Shown piece after piece: positions 1 through 27,994 of a stretch of 31,753 nucleotides of DNA. The translations under genes and the position numbers were made by a program. The stretch's first letter is position 1. Every line of letters begins with the position of its first letter. A model generated the notes under the pieces. The model was not told the DNA's origin. It saw nothing but the letters and a program-made list of their open reading frames with translations, and ran no database searches. Source of the stretch: an uncultured Conexibacteraceae bacterium (GTDB lineage Bacteria; Actinomycetota; Thermoleophilia; Solirubrobacterales; 70-9). The stretch is taken from NCBI GenBank assembly GCA_964591825.1, contig CAZQET010000376.1, forward strand, positions 1 through 31,753, read 5' to 3'.

Positions 1-152
1 AACCCGTCGAAGATCTTCTCCTTGCCGGCATAGAAGAACAGCACGCCGACGAGGAGGTAGACGCCGGCAAGCACCAGCCCGTAGACGACCCCGTCCTCCC
101 AGCGCATCGCCTGCCTCCCCGGCGGGTGTTTTACAGCCCCACGTGCCTCCAT
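1..152 (-). CDS. DoxX-like membrane protein, N-terminal part (runs off the left edge)
   Basis: Not in the ORF track. Manual translation from ATG at 152, with AGGAGG 6 nt upstream, gives MEARGAVKHPPGRQAMRWEDGVVYGLVLAGVYLLVGVLFFYAGKEKIFDG. A hydrophobic helix followed by F-x-x-x-G-x-x-K resembles the first DoxX helix. Alternative in-frame ATG at 107. Confidence 0.6.
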   Translation of the reverse strand, partial: MEARGAVKHPPGRQAMRWEDGVVYGLVLAGVYLLVGVLFFYAGKEKIFDG

Positions 153-242
153 GCCGAACCTCCTAACGGTCGATTACTCGATGCCTTCGACCGTAACCGG
201 GACCTGCCCACGTGTCCACCGACGCATCCCGCGTCCCAACGG

Positions 243-260
243 CTAGATGAAGTACATGCC
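243..260 (-). repeat. att-core-like direct repeat, distal copy (duplicate of the rrf2 3' end, reads GMYFI-stop)
   Basis: Reverse complement GGC ATG TAC TTC ATC TAG versus GGC ATG TAC TTC ATT TAG in rrf2; the single difference is synonymous. Confidence 0.85.
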
Positions 261-278
261 GAGTCGCGGCGCGCAATC

Positions 279-293
279 CCGCATGAGCAAGCG
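279..293. repeat. Shared end motif CCGCATGAGCAAGCG (left copy)
   Basis: 13/15 identical to CCGCTTGAACAAGCG at 928-942; lies between the core repeat and the tandem 10-mers. Confidence 0.6.
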
Positions 294-306
294 ATTTGCC
301 GTTTCC

Positions 307-339
307 GTGCGCCTGTTATGCGCCAGTTGGTGCGCCAGT
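307..339 (+). repeat. Three tandem 10-mers, arm-type-site-like (GTGCGCCTGT, ATGCGCCAGT, GTGCGCCAGT)
   Basis: Copies at 307-316, 318-327 and 330-339, spaced 11-12 bp apart. Confidence 0.75.
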
Positions 340-391
340 AAGCACCGCGCCAGCCGCGCGGGCGGCTTCTTCATCCCGCTCTCTTTGAGCT

Positions 392-607
392 TCACGCGGG
401 CGTTAGCGGTCGATCCGTCAACGTCGCCGTGGCGACGTGCAGTGGGCCGCTCTCCCCGCCCTCGTCAGCTATATAGAGGGCGACTCCCTCTTGTAGAGAT
501 TCAAAAAGCTCGTCAAGAGTGTCCCCGGAGGCGAAGCAGCCGGGCAACTCCGGAACGTCGGCCCAGTAGCTGCCGTCCTCGATATGGATACGCGCGGTTA
601 GCTCCAT
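392..607 (-). CDS. hicB: HicB-family antitoxin, short form (71 aa)
   Basis: EDGSYWADVPELPGCFASGDTLDELFESLQEGVALY is the typical HicB N-terminal partial RNase H fold signature; lies directly downstream of hicA; no C-terminal DNA-binding domain. Confidence 0.9.
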   Translation of the reverse strand: MELTARIHIEDGSYWADVPELPGCFASGDTLDELFESLQEGVALYIADEGGESGPLHVATATLTDRPLTPA

Positions 608-620
608 AGGTGAAGTTCCT

Positions 621-815
621 TCATCTTAGCTCTGCCTGTTTGAGAATCGCCTGGGCCAAGCCAGTTGGGTAGTCGCGCCCCTTGTGCTGCGGGAGCGTGA
701 TCGGACGACGGCCGGGCTTGGTCATCTTGACCTGATGCTTGCCCCCGCGAGCCTGCGTCCAGCCATTTTCCTTCAACAGCTTGATCGCCTTCTTCTGACT
801 CAGCGTGCCCTTCAT
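621..815 (-). CDS. hicA: HicA-family toxin (mRNA interferase, dsRBD fold)
   Basis: 64-aa basic protein with LLKENGW..RGGKHQVKM.KPGRRPITLPQHKGRDYPTGLAQAILKQA; the conserved His motif (GKH for GSH) is intact. Confidence 0.9.
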   Translation of the reverse strand: MKGTLSQKKAIKLLKENGWTQARGGKHQVKMTKPGRRPITLPQHKGRDYPTGLAQAILKQAELR

Positions 816-870
816 CGACCCGAGCGACGGTAGCCCTCAGTGCGGCGGAAACGTTTCGGCAGCGTGCCTC

Positions 871-891
871 ATGCGCCACTGGTGCGCCAGT
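871..891 (+). repeat. Two tandem 10-mers, arm-type-site-like (ATGCGCCACT, GTGCGCCAGT)
   Basis: Copies at 871-880 and 882-891; same motif and orientation as 307-339. Confidence 0.75.
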
Positions 892-927
892 ACGACCGGA
901 AATAACCGGACTCAGCCGGGGTGCGAA

Positions 928-943
928 CCGCTTGAACAAGCGG
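928..943. repeat. Perfect palindrome CCGCTTG-AA-CAAGCGG (right copy of the shared end motif)
   Basis: 7+2+7 palindrome between the tandem 10-mers and the core repeat; mirrors the placement of 279-293. Confidence 0.6.
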
Positions 944-968
944 AATCGCAAGGCCCATGCGGCTCGCT

Positions 969-986
969 CTAAATGAAGTACATGCC
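969..986 (-). repeat. att-core-like direct repeat, proximal copy (last five codons plus stop of rrf2)
   Basis: See 243-260. Confidence 0.85.
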
Positions 987-1367
987 CGAGCCGGCGGCCT
1001 CGGCTTCGCGGCGGGCGACCTCGGCGATCGTCGTCTGGGCGAAGACCTTGCGCAGGGCTGTGACGCCCTCGGCCCAGATGCCGCCGGCCTCGTCGGCCTC
1101 CTGCCCGACCTTGCCGTCGAGCGCCTGGACCACCTCCAGCACGGAGATCTCCTCGGCTGGGCGAGCGAGCGTGTAGCCGCCTCGCATGCCGCGGTGGCTG
1201 GTGAGCAGGCCGGCGCGGCGCAGCGTCGAGAAGAGCTGCTCGAGGAACTGCTCGGGGATGCCGCGACGCTCGGCCAGCTCCTTGATCGGCACCGGGCGCT
1301 CGCCCGAGCCCGCCAGCTCCGCCATCGCGACCACTGCGTAGCGCGACTTCGAGGTGATCGAGATCAC
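969..1367 (-). CDS. Rrf2-family transcriptional regulator (no Cys ligands, CymR-like)
   Basis: ITSKSRYAVVAMAELA...IPEQFLEQLFSTLRRAGLLTSHRGMRGGYTLARPAEEISVLEVVQALDG is the Rrf2 winged-HTH signature; no cysteines. Confidence 0.95.
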   Translation of the reverse strand: MISITSKSRYAVVAMAELAGSGERPVPIKELAERRGIPEQFLEQLFSTLRRAGLLTSHRGMRGGYTLARPAEEISVLEVVQALDGKVGQEADEAGGIWAEGVTALRKVFAQTTIAEVARREAEAAGSGMYFI

Positions 1368-1470
1368 CCGAATTTTCTACCGCACCGATCGGACCCGGCT
1401 GGGTTAGGATCGGTTCGGGCTCCAGGGCTGACGATGGAGCCGTCGCCGAACCTCGGAAATCGGAGCAGTC

Positions 1471-2094
1471 CTGAGCGAGCGTCCACAGTGCCTAGTCGTC
1501 GACGGTCATCCGATCGTTCGGATCGGGATGCGCCGCGCGCTTCAGGATCGCTTCGAGGTCCAGGAGGCCGACAGCCGAAGCGAGGCCGTGGACCTGATTC
1601 GCGACGTGGGCAGCTTCGACGTCGCGATCGTCGAAATGCGCCGTGGGCTCGACGAGGCGGATCCGCCGAGACTGGATGGCACCGAGGCGATCAGGGCGAT
1701 GCTCAAGTCCGAACCTGGCATCGGCATCGTCGCGCACGGCGAGCGCGCCGAGCGCCACCTCGCCAGCGCAGCCCTGCAGGCGGGCGCCGCGGCCTACATC
1801 TCCAGGACAGCGGACAGCGACCATCTGCTGCGCGCCGCCCAGGCGGCGCTGGCCCAGGAACGCTTCGTTGACCCCGACGTGCCGCCGCGCGGCAGTCGCG
1901 GCAAGCTGACCAAGCGCCAGCGCGAAATCCTCCAGCTCCTCGCCAACGGCGAATCGACCACCGTCGCCGCCCGCGAGCTCGACCTCAGCGAAGAGACGGT
2001 CAAGACCCACACCAAGAACGCCCTCGCGCGACTGGGCGCCCGCAACCGAACCCACGCCGTGGCGATCGCCCTGCGCGAGTCCTTGATCGAGTAG
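1471..2094 (+). CDS. NarL/LuxR-type response regulator with atypical receiver domain; start uncertain
   Basis: C-terminal LTKRQREILQLLANGEST..AARELDLSEETVKTHTKNALARLG is a LuxR HTH. The receiver beta1-alpha1 (CLVVDGHPIVRIGMRRAL) lies upstream of the called ATG at 1528 in the same open frame. The only plausible in-frame start is CTG 1471, 5 nt after GGAG. Confidence 0.85.
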   Translation: MSERPQCLVVDGHPIVRIGMRRALQDRFEVQEADSRSEAVDLIRDVGSFDVAIVEMRRGLDEADPPRLDGTEAIRAMLKSEPGIGIVAHGERAERHLASAALQAGAAAYISRTADSDHLLRAAQAALAQERFVDPDVPPRGSRGKLTKRQREILQLLANGESTTVAARELDLSEETVKTHTKNALARLGARNRTHAVAIALRESLIE

Positions 2095-2098
2095 CCGC

Positions 2099-2194
2099 GG
2101 CCCGCGGGTCCTGTCGCCGCAGGGGACCCCCCACCCCCTGCGGTCGCTAAAGCGTCCTCGGGGGCGGGCCCCCCTACGGCGCCACCCGCGGGAG
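2099..2194 (+). repeat. 96-bp GC-rich palindromic repeat, copy 1
   Basis: GGCCCGCGGGTCCTG...CACCCGCGGGAG; 87/96 ungapped identity to 28974-29069 by manual alignment. Confidence 0.9.
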
Positions 2195-2293
2195 CAGCCA
2201 CAGACAAGGACCCGCGTAGTCCGCTACGGCGAGGAGACGCTCGCACAGGCGGTCCCAGTCGCTGATGGCGACAGCTTCTAGGGACGAACGCCT

Positions 2294-2392
2294 CTCCCGC
2301 GGGTGACGCGGTGGCGGGGGTCCCCCATAGCGGAGGACGCCGAAGGCGTCCGAGCACATGGGGGATGGCCGCCGCGGCAGGACCCGCGGGCC
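2294..2392 (-). repeat. Inverted, diverged copy 2 of the 96-bp repeat (99 bp)
   Basis: Reverse complement begins GGCCCGCGGGTCCTGCCGCGGC (20/22 with copy 1), retains GCGTCCTC internally and ends CACCCGCGGGAG. Confidence 0.75.
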
Positions 2393-2406
2393 AGATACGT
2401 CCGTCC

Positions 2407-3486
2407 TTAGATCCAGCCGCGATCTCGGGCGGTTAGTACCGCCTGCGCCCGGTCGACGGCGCCGATCTTGCCGTAGACGTTGTGCAGGTGCGTGCGGATG
2501 GTCGAGACGGAGAGCTGCATTTCTCCAGCGATCTGCTTGTAGACCATGCCCTCGGAGAGATGACGCAGGACGTCGAGCTCACGAGCCGAGAGCGGGCAGG
2601 GCTCGGTCACGCGTGAGACATCGCTGCGGGCATAGGGAAGCTGGTAGAGCAGGTCGCGCAGGGCGTCGGGGCTGAGGCCGCATCGTTTCGCCGCCGCGTG
2701 CAACCGTTCTGGCGATACCGCCTCACCCTGGCTGTAGTGGGCGACCATGTCGGCGGTGGCGACGAGAGCGGCGAGGCCCTCGGCGTCGTCGGCGTGGTGG
2801 CGCTCGATCGCCACCGCGATCCGCTGCGGCAGGTTCCAGCGCCGTGCCAGCACGCCACCGACGAGCGCGTGGTCGATGCCGAGGCGCTCGCGTTCCTCGC
2901 GCAGGCGCTGCTCCGGAGCCTTGGAGACGGCCTCGAGCGCGCCCCGGTCGCCCGGGTGGAGATTGCAGATGACCAGTCGACCGACGTCGTGCAGCAGCGA
3001 GGCGACGGCCAGTTCGTCACGATCCTCCCAACCGATCGCGCGACCTATTTCATCGGCGGCCTGCTGCGTCGCCAGGGCGTGGACGCGGAAGCGCTCCGGG
3101 CGCATCTCGCGTCCGCCGTTGCTCTCGAAGAAATCAAAGACGGGCGCGGTGCCGGCGATGGCGAGCACGCCGGAGGACTTGAGAGCGTCGATCGCCGCCG
3201 GAACGGTGCCGATGCTGCCGACCGGCACCGCGGTGCGGTTGGCGAAGCGCAGCACCGCAATCGAGAGACCGACGTCCGCCTCGACCGCTTCGATCAAATC
3301 GGTGACCCGGCCGGTCTCCGCCGTGGCCGCCTGCATCACCCTTGCCCGCGACTCCAAGAGGACGGGGAATTTCTCCACCGCCTCGAAGGCGGCGGCGAGG
3401 CGCGCTCCGGGGGCGGGACGAGCGCCGCCCTTGCTGGCCTCGCCGGGCTTGGTCTTGCCGTTGGTATGGGGTTTCGTGGTCTCCAT
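2407..3486 (-). CDS. HDOD-domain + LuxR HTH transcriptional regulator
   Basis: HDOD motifs DVGLSIAVLRFAN, ASLLHDVGRLV and DHALVGGVLARRWNLP..IAVAIERHH; C-terminal LSARELDVLRHLSEGMVYKQIAGEMQLSVSTIRTHLHNVYGKIG. Start moved to ATG 3486 (AAGGAG upstream). Confidence 0.9.
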   Translation of the reverse strand: METTKPHTNGKTKPGEASKGGARPAPGARLAAAFEAVEKFPVLLESRARVMQAATAETGRVTDLIEAVEADVGLSIAVLRFANRTAVPVGSIGTVPAAIDALKSSGVLAIAGTAPVFDFFESNGGREMRPERFRVHALATQQAADEIGRAIGWEDRDELAVASLLHDVGRLVICNLHPGDRGALEAVSKAPEQRLREERERLGIDHALVGGVLARRWNLPQRIAVAIERHHADDAEGLAALVATADMVAHYSQGEAVSPERLHAAAKRCGLSPDALRDLLYQLPYARSDVSRVTEPCPLSARELDVLRHLSEGMVYKQIAGEMQLSVSTIRTHLHNVYGKIGAVDRAQAVLTARDRGWI

Positions 3487-3617: not shown

Positions 3618-4979
3618 TCAGGCCGTGATCCGGGCAAGCGCCGCGTCGATACGGAGCAACGACTCCTCGCGCCCGAGAGCTGCCAGGGACTCGAAGATCC
3701 CGGGCGAGACCGAGGTGCCGGTGATCGCCACCCGGATCGGCTGGTAGACGCGTCCCGGCTTGGTCCCGAGGATGTCCGGGATCGGACTCAGCGCCGCCTC
3801 GATCGCCTCGACATCGAACTCGCACGCCTGCAGCGCCTCTCGCGCCGCCTGCAGCGCCGGCTCGGCACCATCCTTCATCACCTTGGCCCACGCCTTCGGG
3901 TCCTCGACGGGCGGCTCGAAGAGGAAACGAATCAGCACCCAGACCTCCTCGAGGGTCTGGGCTTTCTCCTGGGCAATCGCGCAGGCTGCGCGCAGCCGCT
4001 CGTCGAGCTCGCGACCCAGATGATCGGCGACCGCGGCCGCGTACTCGTCCAGCGGCATCTCGCGCATGAAGCGCCCGTTCAGCCAGCGCAGCTTCTTCTC
4101 GTCGAAGATCGCCGCGGCGCGGCCGACGTCCTCGACCTCGAAGCGCCGCACCAGCTCCTCGGTCCTCATCACCGTGGTGTCGTCGTCCGTGCCCCAGCCG
4201 AGCAGGGCCAGGTAGTTGCGCACGGCGGCCGGAAGGTAGCCAGCCTCACGCAGCTCCTGCACGGATGCCGCGCCATGGCGCTTGGAGAGCTTCTTGCCGT
4301 CAGGACCGTGCAGGAGCGGCAGGTGCGCGTAGCGCGGCGGCTCGTGCCCGAGCGCAGCGAGGACGAGCAGCTGCTTGGGGGTGTTGGAGAGGTGGTCGTC
4401 GCCCCGCACCACCTCGGTGATGCCCATCTCGGCGTCGTCGACCGCGACGGCGAAGTTGTAGAGCACCGAGCCGTCGCCGCGGGCGATGACGAAGTCGTCG
4501 TAGCTGCGGTTGGGGAAGCTGACCGGCCCGCGGATCAGGTCGTGCACCACCGTCTCCCCCTCGTCGGGCACCCGCAGGCGCACCGCCGCACCCGGCGCGT
4601 CGGTCGGCTCGCCGCGATATCCCCGATCCGCCCCGTGCTCGGCCTTCCAGGCCTCGACGTCCCTGGCGGTGGCCGCGTCGGGGTATGCCGCCCCCGATTC
4701 GAGCAGCTCCTGCAGAGCCTCCGCATGTCGCTCGGCCCGCCCGGCCTGCGAGACCGGGCCCTCGTCCCAGTCCAGCTCCAGCCACTCCATCGCGTCGATG
4801 ATCTGCGCCACGTTCTCCTCGGTCGAGCGCTCGCGATCGGTGTCCTCGATCCGCAGCACCAGCTCCCCTCCGCCGTGACGAGCGGCAAGCCAGTTGTAGA
4901 GCGCGGTCCGCGCACCACCGATATGCAGGGCGCCGGTGGGCGACGGAGCGAATCTGAGGCGGAGCGAGGAGTCAGACAC
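3618..4979 (-). CDS. gltX: Glutamate--tRNA ligase
   Basis: RFAPSPTGALHIGGARTALYNWL, LRIEDTDRERS and KLSKR class I motifs. Start estimated at GTG 4979; alternatives at 4997 and 5006. Confidence 0.95.
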   Translation of the reverse strand: MSDSSLRLRFAPSPTGALHIGGARTALYNWLAARHGGGELVLRIEDTDRERSTEENVAQIIDAMEWLELDWDEGPVSQAGRAERHAEALQELLESGAAYPDAATARDVEAWKAEHGADRGYRGEPTDAPGAAVRLRVPDEGETVVHDLIRGPVSFPNRSYDDFVIARGDGSVLYNFAVAVDDAEMGITEVVRGDDHLSNTPKQLLVLAALGHEPPRYAHLPLLHGPDGKKLSKRHGAASVQELREAGYLPAAVRNYLALLGWGTDDDTTVMRTEELVRRFEVEDVGRAAAIFDEKKLRWLNGRFMREMPLDEYAAAVADHLGRELDERLRAACAIAQEKAQTLEEVWVLIRFLFEPPVEDPKAWAKVMKDGAEPALQAAREALQACEFDVEAIEAALSPIPDILGTKPGRVYQPIRVAITGTSVSPGIFESLAALGREESLLRIDAALARITA

Positions 4980-26083: not shown

Positions 26084-27994
26084 TCAGCTCGGCTCGCTCT
26101 CAGCCGCAACGCGGGCGGCGAAATCGGCGACCGACATCGCCCCCAGCTCCCCGTCCACATGCGAGCGCACAGAGACGGCTCCCTCATCCCGCTCGCGGTC
26201 GCCGACGACCAGCATGTAGGGGTAGCGGCCGAGCTCGGCGTCGCGGATCTTCTTGCCGACCGAGCCCGAGCGGGCGTCACGCTCGACCCGCACTCTCGAC
26301 TCGCGCAGCTCCGCGGCAACCCGCGCCGCGTACTCGTTGTGGGAGTCGGAGACGGGCAGGACGATCGCCTGGACGGGCGCCAACCACACCGGGAAGCGAC
26401 CGGCGTAGTGCTCGATCAGGATGCCGGCGAAACGCTCCATCGAGCCGAGCAGGGCGCGGTGGATCATCACCGGGCGGTGGGCTTGGTCGTCGGCGCCGAC
26501 GTAGGAGAGGTCGAAGCGCTCCGGCATCTGGAAGTCGAGCTGGCAGGTGCCGCACTGCCAGGAGCGGCCGAGCGCGTCGGTGACGTGGAAGTCGATCTTC
26601 GGCCCATAGAAGGCCCCGTCCCCGGGATTGAGCTCGTAGGCGCGGCCCTGGCGCTCGAGCGCCTCGGTCAACGCCGCCTCGGCCTTCTCCCACTGCTCCT
26701 CGGAGCCCATCGACTTCTCCGGCCGAGTCGAGAGCTCGACCCGCACGTCCTCGAAGCCGAAGCGCGCGTAGAGCTCGTCGATCGCCGCGCAGATGTCGGC
26801 CACCTCGTCGGCGATCTGCTCCTCGGTGCAGTAGACGTGGGCGTCGTCCTGGGTGAAGGCGCGGACGCGCAGCAGGCCGTGGAGGACGCCCTCGCGCTCG
26901 TTGCGGGAGACGCGGCCGAACTCGGCCAGGCGCAGCGGCAGCTCGCGGTAGGAATGGCGCTCGGAGTCGAAGACGAGGCAGGCGCCGGGGCAATTCATCG
27001 GCCGCAGCGCCAGGCGGCGCTCATCGGACTGCATGAAGTACATGTCGTCGCGGTAGTTGTCCCAGTGCCCAGAGCGATGCCAGAGCTCCTCGTCGAGCAC
27101 CTGCGGCGTGGCGATCTCCCTGTAGCCGCGCTTGCGCAGCTGAGCCTGGACCTCGGCCTCGATCAGGTGCAGCAGCGTCGTGCCGTTGGGCAACCAGAAG
27201 GGCATCCCGGGAGACTCCTCGCGCAGCATGAAGATGCCGAGCTGGGGCCCGAGCCGCCGGTGGTCGCGCTTCTTCGCCTCCTCGATCCGCTCCAGGTGAG
27301 CCGCCAGGTCCTTCTTCGAGAAGAAGGCGGTGCCGTAGATCCGGGTCAGCATCTGGCGCTTCTCGTCGCCGCGCCAGTAGGCGCCGGCGAGCGAGCTCAG
27401 CTTGATCGCCCTGATCCGGCCGGTCGAGGGGCCGTGCGGGCCCCGGCAGAGGTCCTCAAAGGGGCCGTTGCGGTAGAGCGAGACGGTCTCGACGCCTTCG
27501 TTCGCGATCAGGTCCTCGATCAGCTCGACCTTGTAGTCCTCGCCCTGCGCTTTGAAGATCTCGATCGCCTCGGCGACCGGGACGTCGCGCCGCTCGAAAC
27601 GCTCGTCTGCCTCGATGTGCGTCCGCATCGCCGTCTCGATCTTCTCCAGGTCGGCGTCGCTCACCTTGACGTCCTCGGGGAAGTCGAAGTCGTAATAGAA
27701 GCCGTTCTCGATCGCCGGCCCGATCGTCACCTTGGTCCCCGGATAGAGCTCCTGCACCGCCTCCGCCATCACGTGGGCGGCGTCGTGACGGATCAGGTCC
27801 AGCGCCTCGGGATCGCGGTCGGTGAGGATCGCGATCTCGGCCCCGTCGGGCAGGGCCGCGGAGAGGTCGCGCAGCTCCCCGTCGACCCCGATCGCCAGCG
27901 CCGCCTTCGCCAGCCCGGGGCCGATCGCCGCCGCCGCGTCCGCGCCGGAAGCGCCGCCGTCGAGCTCCAACGGCGTCCCGTCGGGCAACTTCAC
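26084..27994 (-). CDS. thrS: Threonine--tRNA ligase
   Basis: TGS N-terminus, IRHDAAHVMA, DLCRGPH, RDHRRLG, LRPMNCPG, GAFYGPKID, IHRALLGSMERF. Confidence 0.98.
   Translation of the reverse strand: MKLPDGTPLELDGGASGADAAAAIGPGLAKAALAIGVDGELRDLSAALPDGAEIAILTDRDPEALDLIRHDAAHVMAEAVQELYPGTKVTIGPAIENGFYYDFDFPEDVKVSDADLEKIETAMRTHIEADERFERRDVPVAEAIEIFKAQGEDYKVELIEDLIANEGVETVSLYRNGPFEDLCRGPHGPSTGRIRAIKLSSLAGAYWRGDEKRQMLTRIYGTAFFSKKDLAAHLERIEEAKKRDHRRLGPQLGIFMLREESPGMPFWLPNGTTLLHLIEAEVQAQLRKRGYREIATPQVLDEELWHRSGHWDNYRDDMYFMQSDERRLALRPMNCPGACLVFDSERHSYRELPLRLAEFGRVSRNEREGVLHGLLRVRAFTQDDAHVYCTEEQIADEVADICAAIDELYARFGFEDVRVELSTRPEKSMGSEEQWEKAEAALTEALERQGRAYELNPGDGAFYGPKIDFHVTDALGRSWQCGTCQLDFQMPERFDLSYVGADDQAHRPVMIHRALLGSMERFAGILIEHYAGRFPVWLAPVQAIVLPVSDSHNEYAARVAAELRESRVRVERDARSGSVGKKIRDAELGRYPYMLVVGDRERDEGAVSVRSHVDGELGAMSVADFAARVAAESEPS

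What the first reader, a model, noticed from the sequence alone, without database searches (positions are those of the whole stretch)
243..986. Integrase-less 726-bp integrative mini-element carrying only a HicAB toxin-antitoxin pair
Seen: the last 18 nt of rrf2 are duplicated 726 bp downstream with a single synonymous difference, so both copies encode GMYFI-stop. Between them lie only hicA, hicB and repeated end motifs, and the cargo is visibly more AT-rich than its neighbours. Known: tyrosine-integrase elements duplicate a short core on insertion and often restore the 3' end of the target gene. Inference: this is a minimal non-autonomous integrative element, a site-specific analogue of a MITE, mobilised in trans and held in place by TA addiction. 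Alternatively it is the end product of deletion of a larger island in which both att ends survived. Its excised circle would be only 726 bp. A CDS target (rrf2) rather than a tRNA is also notable.
Basis: partly seen in the sequence, partly recalled or inferred. Interest (0 to 1): 0.88.

Follow-up and report, generated by a model that had tools for sequence, protein, structure and literature searches.

The report
Decayed integrative element keeping only HicAB
The 726-bp unit is real, but it is the worn-down stub of a roughly 6-kb integrase-carrying mobile element that inserts at the end of the rrf2 (cymR-like) gene in soil Solirubrobacterales, so it is a neat but ordinary example of mobile-element decay.

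Summary
An 18-nt copy of the rrf2 3' end (969-986) recurs at 243-260, 726 bp away. Only hicA, hicB and conserved end sequences lie between the two copies.

Comparison with 80 related Solirubrobacterales genomes gave three results.
- Empty sites exist in 11 species. There the rrf2 stop overlaps the cysK start (TGATG).
- The roughly 110-nt left end and roughly 130-nt right end of the window's unit are the conserved attL and attR arms of an element family with variable cargo at this site.
- Complete members, such as metagenome locus L085 (6147 bp), carry a 400-aa tyrosine integrase next to attR, an excisionase-like HTH protein, XRE regulators and a Replic_Relax (MOB_C-type) relaxase. That makes them integrative mobilizable elements (IMEs).

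The window keeps the last 24 codons of that integrase (316-390, 100% amino-acid identity). Part of the "RTGCGCCAGT tandems" in the right arm are these integrase codons (LTGAPTGA-stop).

So the mini-element is an in-situ deletion remnant, a CIME-like element with attL and attR but no integrase. Other lineages show different deletion endpoints. No second copy or circle junction was found.

It is a new member of a known kind, of modest interest.

The parts
969..1367 (-). rrf2 gene (CymR-like regulator), the integration target. In empty-site relatives its stop codon overlaps the cysK start.
   Evidence: Pfam Rrf2 2e-29. The NCBIfam CymR model is matched over its full length but below the cut-off. 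The gene order rrf2-cysK-cysE is seen.
969..986 (-). attL core: the last 5 codons plus stop of rrf2 (GGCATGTACTTCATTTAG).
   Evidence: The same position holds a core copy in all 80 relatives.
860..968 (-). Left (P') arm of attL, with conserved hairpin-like motifs (CCGCTTGTTCAAGCGG, CCGGCTGAGTCCGG).
   Evidence: About 28 of 80 relatives carry this arm next to rrf2, most without hicAB, at 72-89% identity.
871..891 (-). Two tandem ACTGGCGCA repeats at about 11-nt spacing, putative arm-type integrase sites. The family consensus has three.
621..815 (-). hicA toxin gene, 64 aa, apparently intact.
   Evidence: Pfam HicA_toxin 4e-13, profile positions 2-58 of 58. Full-length homologues occur in relatives.
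392..607 (-). hicB antitoxin gene, 71 aa. This is the short form, with no Pfam DNA-binding domain found.
   Evidence: Pfam HicB_lk_antitox 1e-7 and UPF0150.
316..390 (-). Stub of the tyrosine integrase gene: the last 24 codons (ERDEEAARAAGAVLTGAPTGA and preceding residues) plus the TAA stop. The deletion junction lies directly after the hicB stop.
   Evidence: tblastn of the L085 Int places residues 377-400 on window 319-390(-) at 100% identity, E 2e-8. Frame translations are compared.
261..390 (-). Right (P) arm of attR. It includes three tandem ACTGGCGCA repeats (307-340) that overlap the end of the integrase gene.
   Evidence: 92-94% identical to the right arms of L085 (complete element), L136, L019 and L021.
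243..260 (-). attR core: the distal copy of the rrf2 3' end (GGCATGTACTTCATCTAG).
   Evidence: In relatives the distal copy abuts cysK as ...CATCTGATG.
1..242 (-). Flank beyond the element: the leader and first 36 codons (1-108) of a membrane/STAS-domain protein gene, not cysK. At least one further, older insertion therefore lies between this element and cysK, outside the window.
   Evidence: Homologous to L040 5071-5284. The L040 protein has Pfam SpoIIAA-like 4e-23.

Best explanation
Window 243-986 is the in-situ deletion remnant of an integrative mobilizable element (IME). This element family inserts by tyrosine-integrase site-specific recombination into the last roughly 16-18 nt of the rrf2 (cymR-like) gene of Solirubrobacterales, exactly at the translationally coupled rrf2/cysK junction.

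Integration duplicates the core. The rrf2-proximal copy is completed by element sequence and carries a TAG stop. The distal copy is the former gene end.

Complete relatives have the order attL, variable cargo, MOB_C-type (Replic_Relax) relaxase, Xis-like HTH protein, XRE regulators, 400-aa Int, attR.

In the window's lineage everything between the hicB stop codon and the last 24 codons of int was deleted. What remains is attL (core plus P' arm), the cargo hicAB toxin-antitoxin pair, the int stub, and attR (P arm plus core). This makes it a CIME-like element: both att sites, no recombinase.

What is shown: the homology of both ends to attL and attR of integrase-bearing elements, the empty sites, the int stub, and the variable cargo.

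What is inferred:
- that the ACTGGCGCA tandems are arm-type Int sites;
- that hicAB biased which deletions survived, since loss of the antitoxin gene alone would be penalised;
- that the remnant could still be excised only if a cognate Int/Xis were supplied by a newly arriving element inserting in tandem.
For: 1. Empty site. Eleven of 78 related genomes have rrf2...GGSATGTACTTCATCTGATG...cysK with nothing between the genes. Other inserts range from 14 bp to more than 4 kb.

2. The distal core keeps the native CTGATG junction to cysK in L019, L052, L085, L083, L084 and L136, while the rrf2-proximal copy ends in TAG. This is what crossover within the core predicts.

3. The left arm is conserved next to rrf2 in about 28 of 80 loci with unrelated cargo. 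The right arm plus core is conserved in L019, L021, L047, L052, L078, L083, L085 and L136.

4. Complete element. In L085 the cores are 6147 bp apart. Int is 400 aa, with Pfam Phage_integrase covering profile positions 4-168 of 172. Replic_Relax scores 3e-27. An HTH_17-like 69-aa protein and XRE regulators are also present.

5. The window carries the Int C-terminal 24 codons at 100% identity. Truncation is graded elsewhere: L021 165 aa (Pfam 4e-14), L019 about 110 aa, L052 about 50 aa, L054 about 9 codons.

6. The arms are 82-94% identical between genomes, while a flanking response-regulator gene is only 73-83% identical.

7. Tandem or nested arrangements in L021 and L090, and the window's own distal core that abuts non-cysK DNA, fit repeated use of the same attB.

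8. A wider integrase clade (55-63% identity) is also followed by a copy of a divergent rrf2 end, for example in L118, L107 and L109.
Against: - No excision product, attP junction or restored attB of this particular element was seen. None of the fetched loci shows a right arm joined to a left arm.
- The recombination chemistry and the role of the repeats are inferred from homology only.
- In L006, L009, L082 and L023, and at the distal position in L021, hicAB sits between rrf2 and cysK without recognisable arms. hicAB could therefore have an independent history at this hotspot rather than always being element cargo.
- The window's left arm has only two of the three consensus repeats, so attL may be impaired.
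- The rest of the genome was not available to look for a cognate integrase.
Confidence: 0.85

Rival explanations
1. An active minimal non-autonomous element. On this reading the 726-bp att-hicAB-att unit is itself a mobile entity, excised as a 726-bp circle and re-integrated by an integrase supplied in trans. It would be analogous to a MITE and be maintained by toxin-antitoxin addiction.
For: Both att sites are largely intact and very close to those of a complete element: the right arm is 94% identical to L085. Cognate integrases exist in related genomes. The arms are more conserved than the flanking genes.
Against: - The exact HicA was found only on two contigs that are 100% identical to the window.
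- No other locus has the same deletion junction. L054, L019, L052 and L021 have different junctions.
- No circle junction was seen.
- All family members target one single-copy attB, so copy-number spread within a genome, as MITEs show, is not possible.
- The int stub points to decay in place.
Confidence: 0.12
2. hicAB is an independent insertion at the rrf2-cysK hotspot, and its position between the att arms is secondary. For example, an integrase element inserted next to a resident hicAB and later rearranged. On this reading the 726-bp unit is a composite, not a single decayed element.
For: hicAB occurs without arms in L006, L009, L082 and L023, and lies outside the attR core in L021. hicAB in L014 is 95% identical to the window while the flanks are 83% identical, which suggests separate horizontal movement.
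Against: The left arm and hicAB are contiguous and collinear in five lineages: the window, L019, L044, L068 and L078. In L078 and L019 they lie inside elements bounded by both arms. The arm-less copies are equally well explained by further deletion of the arms, and hicA is already frameshifted or truncated in L006, L014 and L054.
Confidence: 0.1
3. The unit is a cassette moved by host or other recombinases: an integron cassette, a Xer-dependent dif module (IMEX), or a transposon with a target-site duplication.
For: The small size and promoter-poor toxin-antitoxin cargo resemble integron or dif-module cassettes. This is a resemblance only.
Against: - There are no terminal inverted repeats or attC-like palindromes at the ends.
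- The ends are long asymmetric arms with direct tandem repeats, homologous to sequence flanking a dedicated Int gene.
- An 18-nt duplication that recreates a gene end is typical of integrase cores, not of transposase target-site duplications.
- No IntI or integron array is present in the 31.7-kb window.
Confidence: 0.02

Closest known systems
CIMEs (cis-mobilizable elements), e.g. CIME19258 and CIME302 of Streptococcus thermophilus. They are defined as elements that have lost their integration and transfer genes but retain attL and attR (PMC5704250).
   Same: The unit is flanked by attL and attR derived from an integrative element. It has no functional integrase or transfer gene and sits at the 3' end of a protein-coding target gene. 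Related loci show tandem accretion with other elements (L021, L090).
   Different: It is much smaller (726 bp) and its only cargo is a toxin-antitoxin pair. The host is an uncultured actinobacterial order. Cis-mobilisation by accretion has not been demonstrated. It descends from an IME (relaxase only) rather than from a conjugative ICE.
Integrative and mobilizable elements (IMEs) with a tyrosine integrase and a MOB_C / Replic_Relax relaxase (PMC5357655)
   Same: The complete relatives, such as L085, encode Int, a Xis-like HTH protein and a Replic_Relax protein. They carry no conjugation-pore genes within about 6 kb. They integrate in the 3' end of a housekeeping or regulatory gene and restore it.
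   Different: The window's unit has lost all of these genes. The Int is at most about 30% identical to any annotated plasmid or phage integrase. As far as my searches show, the cymR-like rrf2/cysK junction has not been reported as a target.
HicAB type II toxin-antitoxin modules on mobile elements
   Same: The gene order is hicA then hicB. Both proteins pass the Pfam cut-offs. The location is on a horizontally acquired segment.
   Different: HicB is the short 71-aa form in which no Pfam DNA-binding domain was found. Activity is untested.

Membership tests
CIME-like decayed integrative element | Bounded by attL and attR, seen as direct repeats of the target core plus element-specific arms | tested here: met
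   The cores lie at 969-986 and 243-260. The arms are homologous to those of integrase-bearing elements.
CIME-like decayed integrative element | Lacks functional integrase and transfer genes | tested here: met
   Only hicA, hicB and a 24-codon int stub lie between the cores. No int or Replic_Relax homologue occurs elsewhere in the window.
CIME-like decayed integrative element | Derived by deletion from an autonomous ICE or IME of the same att specificity | tested here: met
   Complete element in L085 and near-complete element in L083. Int truncations are graded, and the int stub in the window is 100% identical at the amino-acid level.
CIME-like decayed integrative element | Can be excised or mobilised when a cognate element supplies Int/Xis, in cis after accretion or in trans | not testable with these tools
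   Only indirect evidence exists: tandem arrangements in L021 and L090. No attP or circle junction was seen.
Tyrosine-integrase site-specific integration (lambda-type, with arm sites) | An empty attB exists whose sequence equals the core shared by attL and attR | tested here: met
   Eleven species have an uninterrupted rrf2-TGATG-cysK junction.
Tyrosine-integrase site-specific integration (lambda-type, with arm sites) | A cognate integrase with the catalytic R..HxxR..Y domain is encoded adjacent to an att site | tested here: met
   This holds for relatives only. L085 Int is 400 aa, with Pfam PF00589 covering positions 4-168 of 172, and contains HECRHTFAS...DRYGHL. It is absent from the window.
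Tyrosine-integrase site-specific integration (lambda-type, with arm sites) | Arm-type binding sites bound by an N-terminal Int domain | not testable with these tools
   Conserved ACTGGCGCA tandems occur in both arms, and Int has roughly 110 extra N-terminal residues. Binding is untested.
HicAB type II toxin-antitoxin | A HicA_toxin-domain protein encoded immediately upstream of a HicB-fold antitoxin | tested here: met
   PF07927 at 49.6 bits (cut-off 27) and PF15919 at 32.4 bits (cut-off 27). The gap between hicA and hicB is 13 nt.
HicAB type II toxin-antitoxin | Toxin arrests growth and the antitoxin neutralises it | not testable with these tools
   This needs an expression assay.
MITE-like non-autonomous transposable element | Terminal inverted repeats, a short target-site duplication, and multiple dispersed copies | tested here: not met
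   The ends carry no terminal inverted repeats. There is a single copy in the window and the public hits are only identical contigs. Every family member found here beside rrf2 or cysK sits at that one attB.
Integron gene cassette or Xer-dependent dif module | attC-type imperfect palindrome or 28-bp XerC/D sites at the boundaries, with IntI or Xer as the recombinase | tested here: not met
   No such palindromes occur at the boundaries. The boundaries are the arms of a dedicated Int element.

The most novel reading that the evidence does not exclude
The 726-bp att-hicAB-att unit could still be a working cis- or trans-mobilizable element. A cognate L085-type IME arriving at the occupied rrf2 site would insert in tandem and supply Int/Xis. 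It could then excise the stub alone, as a 726-bp circle, or together with itself. HicAB would survive as a hitch-hiking minimal selfish unit, and the rrf2/cysK junction would act as an accretion array that collects toxin-antitoxin and defence cargo across Solirubrobacterales.
Probability: 0.2. Interest if true: 0.5.

Novelty: new member of a known kind. Interest (0 to 1): 0.3.

Why it matters
The finding documents an apparently undescribed family of small integrative mobilizable elements, and a widely used insertion hotspot, in an abundant but uncultured soil actinobacterial order. The hotspot is the translationally coupled cymR-like rrf2/cysK junction.

It also offers an unusually clean natural series, from a complete 6-kb element down to a 726-bp att-TA-att stub and then to arm-less hicAB. 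That series illustrates how toxin-antitoxin genes are the last cargo to survive as a mobile element decays.

It does not reveal a new mobility mechanism.

Tried and rejected
- The exact-sequence look-up of Rrf2 found nothing, probably because the GTG start was translated as V.
- The exact HicA look-up returned only two contigs, both identical to the window. No population-level empty allele of this very lineage was obtained.
- The short 35-aa fragment of the downstream membrane protein was too short to trace synteny, except in L040.
- Pfam scans of the cargo of the five arm-bounded small elements found no complete integrase. The integrase was found only after translating the right arms in all frames.
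- Replic_Relax was considered as a possible recombinase. I rejected this once full elements with a separate Int were found and the literature placed the family among MOB_C relaxases.
- Integron, dif-module and MITE readings were rejected on end structure.
- An RNA gene or tRNA as the target was rejected: no Rfam hit at E<=1 and no tRNA.
- No plasmid match to the 744-bp unit was found.
- The closest annotated plasmid and phage integrases are at most about 30% identical and were uninformative.
- The sigma-70 consensus scan found no promoter. It is uninformative for this high-GC actinobacterium.

Full report
**Observation**

The window's minus strand encodes an Rrf2-family regulator at 969-1367, HicA at 621-815 and HicB at 392-607. 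The last 18 nt of rrf2 (969-986) recur at 243-260 in direct orientation, 726 bp away. The single difference is synonymous (ATT versus ATC), so both copies read GMYFI-stop. No such pair occurred in 100 shuffles.

RTGCGCCAGT-like repeats cluster near both ends, at 307-340 and 871-891, all in one orientation. The segment has 58-65% GC, against 68-75% in rrf2 and beyond.

**Relatives and the empty site**

A scan of species-representative genomes with the Rrf2 protein returned 80 Solirubrobacterales loci with 90-96% identical Rrf2. The conserved gene downstream is cysK, followed by cysE.

In 11 species nothing lies between the genes. The rrf2 stop overlaps the cysK start (...GGSATGTACTTCATCTGATG...), which is a translationally coupled operon and the empty attB. 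The remaining loci divide as follows:

| Insert between rrf2 and cysK | Loci (of 78) |
|---|---|
| none (empty site) | 11 |
| 14-54 bp | 4 |
| 373-3839 bp | 48 |
| more than about 4 kb | 15 |

Where a second core copy survives (L019, L052, L047, and decayed copies in L010, L012, L013, L026, L054), it sits immediately before cysK and keeps the native CTGATG. The rrf2-proximal copy ends in TAG or TAA. This is the signature of crossover inside a core shared by an element and the gene end.

**Conserved ends with variable cargo**

I compared the window's unit with these loci by blastn.
- The roughly 110 nt after the rrf2 stop (window 860-968) are conserved next to rrf2 in about 28 loci. Most of these carry no hicAB and have unrelated cargo (alignment A1).
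- The roughly 130 nt before the distal core (window 261-390) are conserved before the distal core in L019, L021, L047, L052 and L078 (alignment A2).
- Both arms carry tandem ACTGGCGCA repeats at about 11-nt spacing in the same orientation.

Cargo in the inserts is diverse. It includes methyltransferases, CHAT, PIN, a TIR effector domain, APH, HAD hydrolases and DUF5131. hicAB occurs in only 11 of 80 loci.

**The integrase**

Translating the right arms in all frames showed that they contain the 3' end of a tyrosine integrase gene.
- L021 has a 165-aa fragment: Pfam Phage_integrase 4e-14, containing HECRHTFAS...DRYGHL and ending ...ERDEEAARAAGAVLTGAPTGA-stop.
- L019 keeps about 110 codons, L052 about 50 and L054 about 9.
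- The window keeps 24 codons plus the stop (316-390).

tblastn of a full-length homologue matches its residues 377-400 to window 319-390(-) at 100% identity, E 2e-8. Two of the three right-arm tandem repeats are the codons LTGAPTGA-stop. The third repeat lies just after the stop. The window contains no other integrase or Replic_Relax homologue.

**Complete elements**

A protein search with the L021 fragment found many homologues. Their contexts were then examined.
- Metagenome locus L085 has the order rrf2, attL core, left arm, cargo, Replic_Relax protein, 69-aa HTH_17-like (excisionase-like) protein, XRE regulators, 400-aa Int with a complete catalytic domain, right arm, core with CTGATG, cysK. 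The cores are 6147 bp apart.
- L083 is a 5.6-kb version. The N-terminus of its Int is replaced by the first 27 residues of the Replic_Relax protein, which is a deletion fusing two neighbouring genes.
- In L078 the Replic_Relax gene runs into the right arm and the integrase is gone.

Replic_Relax (PF13814) is classed with MOB_C relaxases (PMC5357655) and with the PD-(D/E)XK fold (PMC3424549). The complete element is therefore best described as an IME.

More distant integrases (55-63% identity) are also followed by a copy of a divergent rrf2 end. In L118 Rrf2 is 53% identical, the element is about 10 kb, and the core is GTATTACATCTAG. The target preference is therefore old and clade-wide.

**What the window's unit is**

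It contains attL (core plus P' arm), hicAB, a 24-codon int stub, and attR (P arm plus core). The deletion junction lies directly after the hicB stop codon.

Other lineages have different junctions. The exact unit was found only in two contigs 100% identical to the window. None of the fetched loci shows a right arm joined to a left arm, which would be an attP or circle junction.

The MITE analogy fails on end structure, on copy number and on the single target site.

**Repeated use of the site**

In the window the distal core ends in TAG and is followed not by cysK but by the leader and start of a membrane/STAS-domain protein gene. That gene is also found between rrf2 and cysK in L040. The integrase element therefore entered an rrf2 end that already had an older insertion behind it.

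L021 has the order element, core, arm-less hicAB, cysK. L090 has two right arms. Both show tandem or nested arrangements.

**Is it still mobile?**

The right arm is 94% identical to that of the complete L085 element. The left arm is 86% identical but has two instead of three repeats.

The arms are more conserved between genomes (82-94%) than a neighbouring response-regulator gene (73-83%). This suggests either constraint or more recent horizontal spread. hicAB in L014 is 95% identical to the window's while the flanks are 83% identical.

Excision by an Int supplied in trans is therefore possible in principle but unproven. I give it about 0.2.

**Role of hicAB**

Both genes look intact. In several relatives hicA is truncated or frameshifted (L006, L014, L054).

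Independent deletions in the window and in L054 both stop at the hicB stop codon. This fits selection against deletions that remove the antitoxin, but it is an inference. Arm-less hicAB copies (L006, L009, L082, L023, and the distal position in L021) can be read either as a further step of decay or as an independent history. I rate the second at about 0.1.

**Negative checks**

- No Rfam family was matched at E<=1 and no tRNA was found in 1-3000.
- The unit has no plasmid match.
- The nearest annotated plasmid or phage integrases are at most about 30% identical.
- The Rrf2 matches the NCBIfam CymR model over its full length but below the cut-off, which agrees with its cysK-cysE context.

**Verdict**

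This is a real feature, correctly observed. It is explained as a decayed, CIME-like remnant of a previously undescribed but conventional tyrosine-integrase IME family that targets the rrf2/cysK junction. It is a new member of a known kind, of modest interest.

Noticed in passing
L005, L017, L042, L045, L046, L051, L070-L072, L075, L079 at about 4395-4405; many occupied loci just upstream of cysK: In empty sites rrf2 and cysK are translationally coupled (TGATG). In many occupied loci cysK is instead preceded by a -10-like TAGAGT, TAAAGT or TAGGGT motif. About 7-10 nt after that motif comes a very short ORF that ends in TGATG. This looks like a leaderless mini-ORF that restores coupling and expression of cysK after the operon was split.
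   Followed up: no
L078 6564-8153; L008, L031, L053, L068, L073; L083 10001-10090: A Replic_Relax (MOB_C-type) gene with a conserved partner of about 200 aa upstream recurs in these elements. In L078 it abuts the right arm where int should be. In L083 its first 27 codons are fused in frame to an N-terminally truncated int. Both arrangements are deletion scars.
   Followed up: partly
Cargo regions of L003-L082, downstream of position 4400: Cargo at this hotspot includes defence- or stress-type genes: a CAP12/Pycsar-type TIR effector domain, a CHAT protease domain, PIN, DNA methylases, an APH phosphotransferase and DUF5131. The site behaves like a small variable or defence island across the order.
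   Followed up: no
L014 4409-4854 versus window 392-860: hicAB of L014 is 95% identical in DNA to the window's, while the flanking genes are about 83% identical. A 50-nt piece upstream of hicA is inverted in L014, and hicA lacks its first 12 codons. This suggests recent horizontal exchange followed by rearrangement.
   Followed up: no
window 243-395 (-): A 50-aa ORF ending in GMYFI-stop is called as a gene in the JGI record (L001 5421-5573). It reads through the int stub in another frame and through the attR core. It has no Pfam hit and is probably spurious, although an open frame in this register is also present in L019, L021 and L078.
   Followed up: partly
L118 800-1000 and 10930-11100; L092, L093, L107, L109, L125: Integrases only 55-63% identical to the L085 Int are also followed by tandem GCGCCAGT-type repeats and a copy of their own host's divergent rrf2 end (MYYI-stop). 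Targeting of the rrf2 C-terminus is therefore conserved over a broad integrase clade.
   Followed up: partly
window 27029-27046 (+): A 3-mismatch match to the 18-nt core (CTGCATGAAGTACATGTC) lies inside a long ORF region. It is probably chance and was not examined.
   Followed up: no
window 1-242 and L040 4400-6102: The gene after the window's attR encodes a membrane protein with a SpoIIAA/STAS-like domain (in the L040 homologue). It lies between rrf2 and cysK without recognisable att arms and appears to be an older insertion of unknown origin at the same junction.
   Followed up: partly
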